Assembly (NCBI RefSeq): GCF_902652985.1
Contig: NC_047016.1
Location: forward strand, 29,078,001-29,142,000
Origin: Pecten maximus
Lineage: Eukaryota
Length of the DNA stretch: 64,000 nt
Direction: 5' to 3'
Part shown: positions 61,001-64,000 of the stretch, in pieces
Layout of the letters: each line of letters starts with the position of its first letter
How positions within the stretch are numbered: the stretch's first letter is position 1
Made by a program: the position numbers

Positions 61001-64000
61001 GTCCTCATTCCGATCCAGTTATTTATTCGAAAAGGTCAAAAGGTTCAAAGTAGACTAATTAACCTTAATCTTGTGTCAATAAGCTAATTTACAGTTGGAG
61101 TTGTTTCCATTTCCTACCACTCGACTATGATATTTATGTTTTTTCAAATATTATTACGGCTAAAAATGAAAATACAAATGTAACTGAAATTAGTTCCGTA
61201 CCGTTACCGATGGCGTACAATGATACAAATTATGAAAAATATAGGACTTATTATTGAATTCCTTTGCCACGGTGTACTTTATTGTTGCTTACGATTACGA
61301 GATGGCTCCCTTCACCCCGCCCCCCCCCCCCCCCCCCCCCCCCCAAAAAAAGAAAGAGTTCCAAAAAACAACTCTTTGAAAAGGTACCGACATCTTATTT
61401 CCAGTGACGAGTATCAATCTCGTATAACTGTTTTAAACATAGACTTAATCAATTAGTGTTGAGATTTTTGTTCTGTTTTAAAATCCGTCAATTGGTGATA
61501 TCGGATAGCGAAGCTTCAAAATTTATGAATTGATGGTGTCAACTTTATGATAGAATATGTTGCGAAATAATATATGGTACACTGTTCTTTTTATGAAACC
61601 TTCGAAAAGGAATTTTGTAAAAATATACAATTTACATTAGATGCTGAAAATGCACTGAATCTTTTGTTTAGGCTTCAGCGTGATTCAAAGGGTCAAACGA
61701 GTGGACTTTCAGTGGTAAACTATGTTTTGTTACTTAAGAAATAATTAACGATGATTCGTGTATTGTTGCAGGATATACAACTCGGACTCGGATATTTTGC
61801 AATTAAATTAATAACAAAGGTCGCAGGCCTGAGTTATTGATTAAAATTGCAAAATATCCGAGTTCGAGTTGTATATCCTGCAACAATACACGAGTCAAAG
61901 TTGATTATTTCTTTTCTACCATGTACTGTTTAGTTCTGAGATCGACCTCTTTCTAATAGAAAAACAGCAAAGAAACCCCGAGAAAACCTTGTAATTTATT
62001 GTTTGAGTATTGCATTATTTGTTGATGAAATATACAGGCAATACAGTACTACGATCAAAAGCATCTATCATATGGCATTGATTTTGAAAATAAAAAAAAA
62101 AAAAAAAAAAAAAAGGGGGGGAGGGGGGGGGGGGGGGGGGGCTCCGTAGGATTCCAACTCGCGTCGTGATAAAAACATATTGAAATGAAAGACTAACCCA
62201 TTAGCCAACTCGGCTATAGTAACCTTTTATGAAACGGGTGAATATTATAAGATATATAAAATTGTAACAGCCGTGACTCACGACCGTGTATTATTGGCAC
62301 GAGCGTGGGTTATTGGAAAATAATACACAGTTTTAAACCAACCAAAAGTGGCGTTGCATAGCAAACATGGTAGAATGTAATATAATGAATCTTTAGGTAT
62401 CCAATTGATTCAAAGGGTTAAAGGAGTGGATTGTCAGTGGTAAATTGTATTTTGATACATACAACATAACTTAAATGCCAAATAATGGATATAACATCAA
62501 ATGGATGATGGTCTAACCTAATGATTTAATCCATTTGGAACAATTTGAAAGACGTGTATATGTTGTTAACCGGTGCCTAATGACACGAAAAACACAGCAA
62601 TGTTAACAGTCCTCGCATGTCTGTATACATCAGCTAATCTTACATACATCAGGCGCTTTTATTGTTCATGCTGATATGTTGTTTTATGGTATTAGATAAA
62701 AACGATTATTTGTAGTAAATAGATACTAAATATGCATTGTACCCAGAAGGTACATGTATAAACCAGGAGGAGTCGGCTGCCCAAACAAATAAATCAAAAC
62801 TATATTTTATTGGAAACTGTCCCGAAATCTGATTTTGAATATGACTTTTCCATTTTTACCAATTACCATTCCAATAACCGGCACTGAGACTAAAACACTG
62901 GCTTTAAAACGACAGTAAAGTGTTGTTTTTTTCTGAAAACGACGACGTGTTCAAGTAATTAACATGCAATAACCTCAGTTACACGTAAATGATGCACCAG
63001 TGATGAAAGGGAAACTATTAAACGTTCTGTATAGGCTAGGGTGTCGGCAGTAATGTTTTACAGGAATGATCGTGTCTATAACAAATCTTTTCTCCCTCAC
63101 AGACCTATCAACGTCAGCAACACGTGTTATCGTAAGCTCTTATTAATCCGAATGCGTTATGATAGACCTCCGTTAATCCGACCGACACGTGCATGGAGCT
63201 AACTGCATGATGAATTGTTTATGCGAACGTGTTATTATACATGGTACAATATGCATTCGATAGCCATCATTCTTTTGTATCTCCTATATAACTCTATTCG
63301 TACGAAAACCAGCACATCCCCGGCGAGCAGCATGCGAATTTTGCTTGTATATATGTAGTGTTTGACTCCTCTATAGTCATTATTTCTAACGGCAGTATCA
63401 ACTTTATTTTCCGGAGATTAGAGGTGTTCATGTCGTCATTTAAAAGATATCATACACCAGGTGGTTAAGGGTAGTCTCGAGTTAGATATCAACCTGGTAT
63501 CCCGTTAATTATTGAACAATGTGATAATTTGGTGTATCGATGTGTAGGCCGAAAAACGAAGTGCGCTCTGTATAAATTTCGAAGAGGTTTGTGCAAAGAG
63601 TACACTTTCGGTTAACAAATGTATCATCACGTTCAATCCTTATATTGAAGTATAAAGCTAAAAAGAAACAATCTTTAACGAAAATATTTTAAATTTACAA
63701 TGGTAAGGGTGTGTTTCTGTGGCGCAATGACTTTGACGTTGACCAAACACGGGTCTGTGCGGCTTTCTCCGCGCGCCGTTATAGTCGCAAAGCCACTAGT
63801 TTATTTTAGTTTCAGTTCCAAGTCTGTTTGCATTTTTGAGGGAAAACTGCATGTTGATGGTCGAAAATATGGACAATTGCAAGAAAAATCGCCAAAAATT
63901 CAGAAAAAAGCTAGTGATTAAGTAATTATTCATTAATATTACCGGATATACTGACATACCAAAAGCGTATCTATATATTCAACAATCCATCCTAACTATT

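What the first reader, a model, noticed from the sequence alone, without database searches (positions are those of the whole stretch)
61734..62375. Palindromic Crypton-like element carrying a complete-looking Pol III tRNA-like cassette
Seen: the element has long inverted arms (A-A'), a second short inverted pair (B at 61914, B' at 62365) and no ORF. On its minus strand lie an AT/TATA-like tract (about 62245-62262), a tRNA-Ser-like sequence with A-box TAGCCGAGTTGG and B-box-like GTTGGAATC (62218-62141), then a C-run and a long T-run. Known: A/B boxes plus an oligo-T terminator define Pol III type-2 units, and TFIIIC-bound B-boxes can act as chromatin barriers. Inference: this DNA element may carry a small-RNA gene or insulator as cargo rather than an ordinary SINE, since no SINE body or tail follows the tRNA-like part. 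Such cargo could matter inside a Hox cluster.
Basis: partly seen in the sequence, partly recalled or inferred. Interest (0 to 1): 0.7.

Follow-up and report, generated by a model that had tools for sequence, protein, structure and literature searches.

The report
Hairpin transposon beside decayed tRNA relic
A short hairpin-forming mobile element sits next to the worn-out remains of a tRNA-derived sequence in the non-coding DNA upstream of a scallop Hox3 gene, and it looks like ordinary repeat debris, not a working small-RNA gene.

Summary

**Context.** The window is scallop (Pectinidae) DNA. Its Hox3 exons are 96-97% identical to Ylistrum balloti.

**The palindrome.** 61736-61913 is a real 178-nt near-perfect palindrome (DNA fold -74.5 kcal/mol, z -20.6). 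It has no ORF, which fits a foldback or MITE-type element. Nothing marks it as a Crypton.

**The tRNA-like stretch (62225-62142, minus strand).**
- It has an exact A-box and a 9-of-11 B-box 45 nt apart, the only such pair on both strands of the window.
- It is not a tRNA by ARAGORN or Rfam.
- It folds no better than shuffles.
- Its B-box has G where the invariant C56 should be.
- It reads best as a decayed relic of a long-variable-arm tRNA, followed by C27 and T23.

**Is it one element?** The only evidence is an 11-nt inverted pair (B/B') and an ~85-nt direct repeat, ~80% identical, that flanks the whole block.

**What stayed unchecked.** No part recurs in the window. No eukaryotic genome or repeat library was available, so the decisive family-copy test was not run.

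**Verdict.** Ordinary, low interest.

The parts
61649..61735 (+). Direct repeat X, left copy, ending exactly where the palindrome begins
   Evidence: It is 77-81% identical to 62379-62462/74. The local score is 71, against a shuffle maximum of 25 (0 of 200). No homology continues beyond it.
61736..61913 (.). 178-nt near-perfect palindrome, a foldback or MITE-type non-coding element
   Evidence: 69-nt arms, 93% complementary; 86% over 179 nt against its own reverse strand.: -74.5 kcal/mol, z -20.6; 11 of 15 weak Rfam rows fall here. They are long-hairpin miRNA-precursor families and one sRNA, all below gathering score (for example 62.4 against 180).
61914..61924 (+). B: 11-nt left arm of the short inverted pair, starting at the first base after the palindrome
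   Evidence: Read. Position test: 38 of 9029 landmarks. No extension of the pair.
61925..62091 (+). Non-coding stretch that ends in the A-run on the plus strand; origin unknown, possibly a retroposed 3' end
   Evidence: It has no match elsewhere in the window, including upstream of the other A and T runs. A protein-level search with its 69-aa frame found no candidate.
62092..62141 (.). Compound homopolymer A23 G7 A G19 on the plus strand, which is C19 T C7 T23 on the minus strand
   Evidence: This is the only G run of >=9 in 64 kb.
62142..62225 (-). Decayed tRNA-derived relic of class II (long variable arm) appearance
   Evidence: unique A/B pair; relaxed cloverleaf with acceptor 5 of 7 pairs, D stem 4 of 4, T stem 3 of 5 and an unpaired 20+ nt variable region. 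Searches are the negative tests for a real tRNA.
62205..62216 (-). A-box-like TAGCCGAGTTGG
   Evidence: It is an exact match to TRGCNNAGTNGG, a consensus I recalled. There are 2 such sites on both strands of the window.
62149..62159 (-). B-box-like AGTTGGAATCC, with G at the invariant C56 position
   Evidence: 9 of 11 positions match, and 24 sites of that quality occur in the window; it fails the GTTCRANNC core; passages on C56G in PMC5391098.
62252..62258 (-). TATA-like heptamer about 33 nt upstream of the relic
   Evidence: Such heptamers occur at 2.5 per kb per strand, and 3.6% of random positions have one in the same range.
62279..62331 (.). 19-nt unit repeated twice, and a 13-nt-arm small hairpin
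   Evidence: 62279-62316, period 19, 2.0 copies; inverted pair I4, 62283-62295 with 62319-62331.
62365..62375 (+). B': right arm of the 11-nt inverted pair, ending 3 nt before X'
   Evidence: Read.
62379..62462 (+). Direct repeat X', right copy
61320..61344 (.). C25 run followed by A7, 780 nt left of the G run; possibly linked to it, unexplained
   Evidence: the only C run of >=9 in 64 kb; its flanks are not homologous to those of the G run.

Best explanation
The locus is a patchwork of old repeat debris in the long intergenic DNA about 46 kb upstream of Hox3 in a scallop. It is not one cargo-carrying element.

Part 1 (61736-61913) is a 178-nt palindromic, non-coding foldback or MITE-type DNA element. 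I infer that it moved, if it moved at all, by a transposase supplied in trans. No target-site duplication could be recognised.

Part 2 (61914-62375) is a 462-nt non-coding stretch. On its minus strand it holds the relic of a Pol III-transcribed, tRNA-derived sequence, either a tRNA pseudogene or the head of a SINE. The relic's trailer has grown by slippage into a C27 T23 compound homopolymer; this slippage step is inferred. The relic keeps an A-box, but it has lost the cloverleaf and carries G at B-box position C56. It is therefore most likely promoter-dead and no longer a good TFIIIC site.

The whole block lies between two ~80%-identical copies of an ~85-nt repeat. That points to an old duplication or an old insertion event. 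The palindrome arms are 93% complementary, so the palindrome is either younger or homogenised.

Shown: the anatomy, the motif statistics, the negative tRNA tests and the absence of ORFs.
Inferred: the mobile origin of each part, their independence from each other, and the lack of function.
For: - **Palindrome.** It is real and extreme. A second, unrelated-looking palindrome of 159 nt lies at 19547-19705, and another pair with 32-nt arms lies at 12162-12470. Hairpin elements of this kind are therefore not rare in this DNA.
- **Rfam on the palindrome.** It sees only generic long-hairpin likeness, with 11 of 15 rows there, all far below gathering scores.
- **tRNA origin.** The exact A-box plus 9-of-11 B-box with 45 nt spacing is the only pair of that quality in 128 kb of strand. 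The relaxed ARAGORN cloverleaf has an intact D stem and a long variable region.
- **Decay.** ARAGORN gives 0 at default and 90% thresholds. Rfam tRNA gives no match at E <= 10. The fold has z +0.68. The GTTCRANNC core is failed at the C, which passages of PMC5391098 call the C56G mutation that abolishes TFIIIC-dependent targeting.
- **Coding capacity.** No ORF exceeds 69 aa.
- **Homology between parts.** The palindrome shows none with the adjoining stretch or the flanks: 20 against a shuffle mean of 19.1, 19 against 19.3, and 18 against 19.1.
- **Age difference.** X against X' is about 80% identical, while the arms are 93% complementary.
Against: - B starts at the very first base after the palindrome, and B' ends 3 nt before X'. 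Only 38 of 9029 landmark positions have such an 11-nt pair. The X/X' repeat brackets palindrome plus B..B' exactly. Both facts would fit a single insertion unit better than two independent ones.
- I found no target-site duplication for the palindrome or for B..B' (flanks), so membership in the MITE class is unproven.
- No second copy of any part exists in the 64 kb, and no genome-wide copy count could be made. 'Repeat' is therefore an inference from form.
- The only G run and the only C run of >=9 nt in the window lie 780 nt apart around this locus. The patchwork model does not explain that.
Confidence: 0.6

Rival explanations
1. One composite non-autonomous DNA element. Either the whole X-bounded block or the 462-nt unit bounded by B/B' is a mobile family that carries a tRNA-derived Pol III promoter module as an integral part.
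For: The perfect 11-nt inverted ends sit exactly at the palindrome edge and 3 nt from X' (38 of 9029 landmarks). The A/B pair is unique in the window. A long T run follows on the same strand. Non-autonomous elements with Pol III-type modules are known on the LTR side: Helenus, Ajax and Cassandra (abstract of PMC10886601).
Against: The inverted ends are only 11 nt and do not extend, and 190 of 300 shuffles reach their alignment score. There is no target-site duplication. No other copy lies in 64 kb. The module is decayed. The palindrome shares no sequence with the rest.
Confidence: 0.13
2. A working Pol III unit or an 'extra TFIIIC' site that serves as a small-RNA gene or chromatin barrier in the Hox cluster.
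For: The A-box is exact, the spacing of 45 nt lies inside the 30-60 nt range quoted in PMC5391098, a TATA-like heptamer lies near -33, and T23 lies downstream.
Against: The B-box core carries C56G. There is no cloverleaf and no fold signal. 27 C residues separate the tRNA-like end from the first T run. The TATA-like and T4+ motifs are common here: 3.6% of positions, and 9.3 per kb per strand.
Confidence: 0.05
3. A single old repair or duplication event. A double-strand break was patched with filler DNA from several sources while about 85 nt of the target was duplicated on both sides.
For: X and X' bracket the block exactly and share nothing beyond their ~85 nt. The interior is a mosaic of unrelated pieces. 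No transposon-type target duplication is present.
Against: An 85-nt flanking duplication is not diagnostic of any one mechanism. X could simply be a short dispersed repeat, and its copy number could not be measured. The arms of the palindrome (93%) look younger than X against X' (about 80%).
Confidence: 0.15
4. The homopolymer block A23 G27, and the C25 run 780 nt away, are sequencing or assembly artefacts, so the apparent 'C-run then T-run terminator' is not real genome sequence.
For: These are the only G and C runs of >=9 nt in 64 kb, and they lie close together. Long homopolymers are error-prone on most platforms (general knowledge).
Against: The window has no N and no other sign of a join. 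The flanks read through normally. Nothing here can test the raw reads.
Confidence: 0.07

Closest known systems
Palindromic (foldback-type) MITEs, non-autonomous DNA transposons that are almost entirely inverted repeat
   Same: It is small (178 nt), has no coding capacity, and is almost wholly made of two complementary arms with a short loop. Its Rfam near-matches are long-hairpin miRNA-precursor families. That some of these families, such as mir-548, derive from MITEs is my recollection.
   Different: No target-site duplication was recognised. There is no second copy in the window. Genome copy number and the superfamily of the mobilising transposase are unknown.
tRNA-derived SINEs of bivalves (PMC11481361; PMC4758252)
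   Same: The 5' part is tRNA-related and has A- and B-box-like motifs.
   Different: The criteria quoted from the Methods of PMC11481361 ask for a poly-A or microsatellite 3' end and a length of 200-700 nt. Here C27 T23 follows directly, with no body and no A-rich tail on that strand. Four 10-nt motifs from the relic gave no hit in the 3 readable supplementary files of PMC11481361. The SINE library FASTA of that paper could not be read, and the one supplementary file of PMC4758252 was not searched.
tRNA pseudogene or decayed tRNA gene with its oligo-T terminator
   Same: The A/B motifs have gene-like spacing, a T run lies downstream, and the relaxed cloverleaf has an intact D stem.
   Different: The acceptor, anticodon and T stems are damaged. 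The anticodon read by the relaxed model (AGT) does not fit a long-variable-arm tRNA. 27 C residues lie between the 3' end and the T run.
TRIMp3 elements (Helenus, Ajax, Cassandra): non-autonomous LTR retrotransposons with a Pol III-type module (PMC10886601, abstract read)
   Same: Direct repeats flank a short non-coding interior that contains a tRNA-like sequence.
   Different: According to the abstract, in those families the tRNA-like part lies inside both LTRs, with a PBS and PPT between them and 4-5 bp duplications. Here the tRNA-like part is single and lies between the repeats. Reading, I saw no PBS-like or polypurine tract next to X or X' and no matching 4-5 nt flanks.
Crypton (tyrosine-recombinase DNA transposons)
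   Same: Nothing was shown beyond its being non-coding repeat-like DNA.
   Different: There is no recombinase ORF. Long inverted arms are not a Crypton feature (recalled). Similarity to Crypton termini could not be tested.

Membership tests
tRNA gene | Cloverleaf recognised by tRNA finders or a covariance model | tested here: not met
   ARAGORN finds 0 in 64 kb. It calls this site only at 80% thresholds, where the window gives 38 calls. Rfam gives no tRNA match at E <= 10 in 1401 nt or 186 nt. The fold has z +0.68.
Pol III type-2 promoter unit | A-box and B-box 30-60 nt apart | tested here: inconclusive
   The A-box is exact and the spacing is 45 nt. The B-box matches 9 of 11 positions but fails the GTTCRANNC core at C56.
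Pol III type-2 promoter unit | Oligo-T terminator shortly downstream | tested here: met
   T23 lies on the minus strand, but 27 C residues beyond the tRNA-like end. T4+ runs are common, at 9.3 per kb per strand.
Pol III type-2 promoter unit | Transcription by Pol III, or TFIIIC occupancy | not testable with these tools
tRNA-derived SINE | tRNA-related head at the 5' end | tested here: met
   Motif-level evidence only.
tRNA-derived SINE | Body plus a poly-A or microsatellite 3' tail, total length 200-700 nt (criteria in PMC11481361 Methods) | tested here: not met
   The head is followed directly by C27 T23. There is no A-rich tail on the minus strand.
tRNA-derived SINE | Many dispersed copies flanked by target-site duplications | not testable with these tools
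   No eukaryotic genome collection was available. There are 0 further copies in the window. Two exact-pattern scans of the prokaryote genome collection gave 0, as expected.
MITE / foldback element | Terminal inverted repeats, small size, no ORF | tested here: met
MITE / foldback element | Target-site duplication of a superfamily-typical length | tested here: inconclusive
   The flanks are ...GTTACTT | element | TTCTACC.... No clean 2-10 nt duplication is present. A diverged TTA/TTT is possible.
MITE / foldback element | Multiple copies in the genome | not testable with these tools
   There is 1 copy in 64 kb. A protein-level search with the 49-aa frame found no candidate.
Crypton | Tyrosine-recombinase ORF, or termini matching an autonomous Crypton | tested here: not met
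   There is no ORF over 69 aa. The comparison of termini was not possible because no Repbase or Dfam library was available.
TRIMp3 (Helenus-type) | tRNA-like sequence inside both terminal direct repeats, with a PBS and PPT between them | tested here: not met
   X and X' hold no A/B pair. The single tRNA-like part lies between them. No PBS or PPT was seen by eye.

The most novel reading that the evidence does not exclude
The 462-nt unit bounded by the 11-nt inverted ends B/B' is a member of an undescribed family of TIR-bounded, non-autonomous DNA elements. Its interior is built around a tRNA-derived Pol III promoter module, a DNA-transposon counterpart of SINEs and of the TRIMp3 retroelements. 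It tends to land next to foldback elements. Younger copies elsewhere in scallop genomes would then have intact A and B boxes and could seed TFIIIC sites.
Probability: 0.08. Interest if true: 0.45.

Novelty: new member of a known kind. Interest (0 to 1): 0.12.

Why it matters
It matters little as it stands. The locus gives one more uncharacterised hairpin element and one more decayed tRNA-derived relic in a repeat-rich bivalve intergenic region.

It would matter only in two cases. One is that genome-wide copies show the tRNA-like module to be a fixed part of a TIR-bounded family, which would be a new route for spreading Pol III promoter or TFIIIC sites. The other is that the site proves to be occupied by TFIIIC inside a Hox cluster, where barrier elements are of real interest. 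The G at B-box position C56 argues against the second case.

Tried and rejected
- **Other copies in the window.** blastn of 61400-62800 against the whole window (word 9, E 1e-3) returned only the palindrome against itself, X/X' and homopolymers.
- **C25 and G27 as ends of one inverted structure.** Their flanks are not homologous. Scores were 26 and 39, against a shuffle mean of 33.2, sd 5.9 and maximum 56.
- **Homology continuing beyond X/X', as a tandem duplication would give.** None: 21 against 22.0 +/- 2.5, and 23 against 22.4 +/- 2.7.
- **Palindrome related to its neighbours.** No.
- **Palindrome related to the second palindrome at 19547-19705.** The alignment is unconvincing. Only the termini (AAGRA...ATTAAC) look vaguely alike.
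- **Known RNA families.** 0 at gathering score in 64 kb. There is no mir-10 or mir-993-type Hox miRNA here.
- **Protein-level searches for spurious ORFs from other copies.** No candidates for the 49-aa frame across the palindrome edge or for residues 1-50 of the 69-aa frame. These searches say little, because short spurious ORFs may not be in that collection.
- **Exact-pattern scans of the prokaryote genome collection,** run in case of host contamination: 0 and 0.
- **Full-text search for four 16-nt strings from the locus:** 0 papers.
- **Paper search for MITEs + scallop + palindromic:** 4 papers in the listing, none relevant by title.
- **LTR/TRIM reading of X...X'.** Rejected by eye: no PBS, no PPT, no matching 4-5 nt flanks.
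- **Poly-A-tailed retrocopy on the plus strand ending at 62114.** No target duplication was found, and nothing resembles it upstream of the other A and T runs in the window. This is left open.
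Full report
**Context**

The window has no N and is AT-rich, with GC of 0.27-0.38 in 2-kb windows. It holds one homeobox.

- The homeodomain exon (10412-11320, minus strand) is 97% identical to the protein named 'homeobox protein Hox-D3a-like [Ylistrum balloti]', followed by other bivalve Hox3 proteins.
- The upstream exon (inside 14893-15570, minus strand) is 96% identical to residues 1-143 of the same protein.
- The two exons were searched and compared separately, and the joined model was left out.

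The DNA is therefore from a scallop (Pectinidae), not human. The finding lies about 46 kb upstream of Hox3 on the gene's own strand. By Hox colinearity this should be the Hox3-Hox4 interval. That is inferred, because no second homeobox lies in the window.

61736-61913 is a 178-nt near-perfect palindrome.

- The arms are 69 nt, 93% complementary, with 40 nt between them.
- It is 86% identical over 179 nt to its own reverse strand.
- As single-stranded DNA it forms one hairpin of -74.5 kcal/mol, against -15.1 +/- 2.9 for 200 shuffles, and 0 of 200 shuffles are as good.

B (61914-61924) and B' (62365-62375) are a perfect 11-nt inverted pair.

On the minus strand lie, in order:
- a TATA-like heptamer at 62258
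- an A-box-like TAGCCGAGTTGG (62216-62205)
- a B-box-like AGTTGGAATCC (62159-62149)
- C19 T C7
- T23

No frame is open for more than 69 aa.

The block is bracketed by a direct repeat, X at 61649-61735 and X' at 62379-62462, about 80% identical. The local score is 71, against a shuffle maximum of 25, 0 of 200. X ends where the palindrome starts, and X' starts 3 nt after B'. Nothing beyond X is shared.

The only C run of >=9 nt in 64 kb (C25, 61320-61344) lies 780 nt from the only G run of >=9 nt. Their flanks are not homologous. I have no explanation for that pairing.

**Is the tRNA-like part a tRNA gene or a complete Pol III unit? No.**

- ARAGORN finds no tRNA in the window.
- With thresholds lowered to 80% it calls 62136-62225 as 'tRNA-Thr(agt)', but at that setting the window yields 38 calls, and 218 at 70%.
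- Rfam reports no tRNA match at E <= 10, either in 61400-62800 or in 62085-62270 alone.
- The RNA fold is -17.9 kcal/mol with z +0.68, and 148 of 200 shuffles fold at least as well.
- The relaxed cloverleaf has an intact 4-bp D stem, 5 of 7 acceptor pairs (the 3' side borrowing the first Cs of the C run), an anticodon stem with two G-U pairs, 3 of 5 T-stem pairs and a long unpaired variable region.

**Is it tRNA-derived? Probably yes.**

I used the recalled consensus motifs TRGCNNAGT(N)GG and GGTTCGANTCC. An exact A-box followed 25-70 nt later by a B-box with at most 2 mismatches occurs once on the two strands of the window, at this site.

- There are 3 exact A-box sites and 24 B-box sites of that quality in the window.
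- About 0.03 such pairs are expected, by my arithmetic.

The B-box-like motif, however, reads GTTGGAATC and fails the core GTTCRANNC at the C.

- Passages of PMC5391098 state that a C56G change in that core abolishes TFIIIC-dependent retrotransposon targeting.
- The same passages say A and B boxes work at 30-60 bp spacing.
- Ten sites in the window meet the core motif, and none lies in the finding.

The TATA-like heptamer and the T run add little. 457 of 12760 random positions (3.6%) have a TATAWAW in the same upstream range, and T4+ runs occur 9.3 times per kb per strand.

**What is the palindrome?**

Rfam's weak matches on it are long-hairpin miRNA-precursor families and one bacterial sRNA. 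They make up 11 of the 15 rows at E <= 10, and all are far under their gathering scores, for example 62.4 against 180 and 52.9 against 90. This is generic hairpin likeness. That some of those families derive from MITEs is my recollection.

The window holds at least one more near-complete palindrome (19547-19705, 84.7% over 163 nt) and a 32-nt-arm pair in the Hox3 intron (12162-12470). Such elements are therefore part of the local landscape.

I could not find a target-site duplication. There is no second copy in the window. Nothing supports the label 'Crypton', since there is no recombinase ORF.

**One element or several?**

For one unit:
- B starts on the first base after the palindrome. Only 38 of 9029 landmark positions (0.4%) have a perfect >=11-nt inverted partner starting within 3 nt. 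I chose this test after seeing the pair.
- The X/X' repeat brackets everything exactly.

Against one unit:
- The B/B' pair does not extend, and 190 of 300 shuffles reach its alignment score.
- 40 non-simple perfect pairs of >=11 nt exist in the window.
- The palindrome shares no sequence with the rest.
- The arms (93%) look younger than X against X' (about 80%).

I favour a patchwork, at 0.6. I keep two rivals: a single composite element at 0.13 and a one-off repair or duplication patch at 0.15.

**Comparison with known families**

- **Bivalve tRNA-derived SINEs.** By the criteria in the Methods passages of PMC11481361 they need a poly-A or microsatellite 3' end and 200-700 nt. This unit fails that.
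- **TRIMp3 elements.** By the abstract of PMC10886601 they carry the tRNA-like part inside both LTRs. This locus does not.
- **Supplementary files.** Motif look-ups in the readable supplementary files of PMC11481361 found nothing. Its SINE library FASTA could not be read. The one supplementary file of PMC4758252 was not searched. Both may hold the family that would name this relic.

**What stayed unchecked**

The decisive test is the copy census and consensus in the scallop genome, with a Dfam/Repbase comparison. It could not be run. The only DNA collections open were prokaryote genomes (0 hits), phages, plasmids and E. coli. Expression and ChIP data were not available.

**Verdict**

The Crypton label, the intact Pol III cassette and the insulator role are not supported. 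This is ordinary repeat debris of known kinds.

Noticed in passing
window 61320-61344 and 62115-62141: The only C run (C25) and the only G run (G7 A G19) of >=9 nt in the 64 kb lie 780 nt apart on the same strand, each next to an A run (A7 and A23). Their flanks are not homologous. This could be an old inversion through one homopolymer, compound microsatellites, or an assembly problem. It remains unexplained.
   Followed up: partly
window 61649-61735 and 62379-62462: An ~85-nt direct repeat, about 80% identical, brackets the whole block exactly and has no other copy in the window.
   Followed up: partly
window 19547-19705: A second near-complete palindrome (159 nt, 84.7% self-complementary) lies directly after a 23-nt x 53-copy tandem array at 18241-19458. 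Its termini vaguely resemble those of the palindrome in the finding.
   Followed up: partly
window 43500-45175: A satellite-like array of a 50-nt unit (99-nt higher-order period), about 34 copies with 83-86% matches.
   Followed up: no
window 56615-56652: (GTTAGG) x 6.3, an interstitial run of the telomere-type hexamer TTAGGG.
   Followed up: no
window 24521-25193: A 344-nt unit repeated 1.9 times (92% matches), with an (AT)14 tract at 25024-25051.
   Followed up: no
window 12162-12193 / 12439-12470: An inverted pair with 32-nt arms, 91% complementary and 245 nt apart, inside the Hox3 intron. It looks MITE-like.
   Followed up: no
window 10412-11320 and 14893-15570, minus strand: A two-exon Hox3 gene, 96-97% identical to Ylistrum balloti 'Hox-D3a-like'. 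No other homeobox lies in the window, and there is no Rfam family at gathering score, so no Hox-cluster miRNA either.
   Followed up: yes
window 62279-62331: A 19-nt unit repeated twice, overlapping a 13-nt-arm hairpin near the right end of the B..B' stretch. The arm sequence (CGTGTATT.TTG) faintly recalls the outer arm of the large palindrome. blastn did not report this, and the local alignment of the palindrome against 61914-62378 did not pick this site either.
   Followed up: partly
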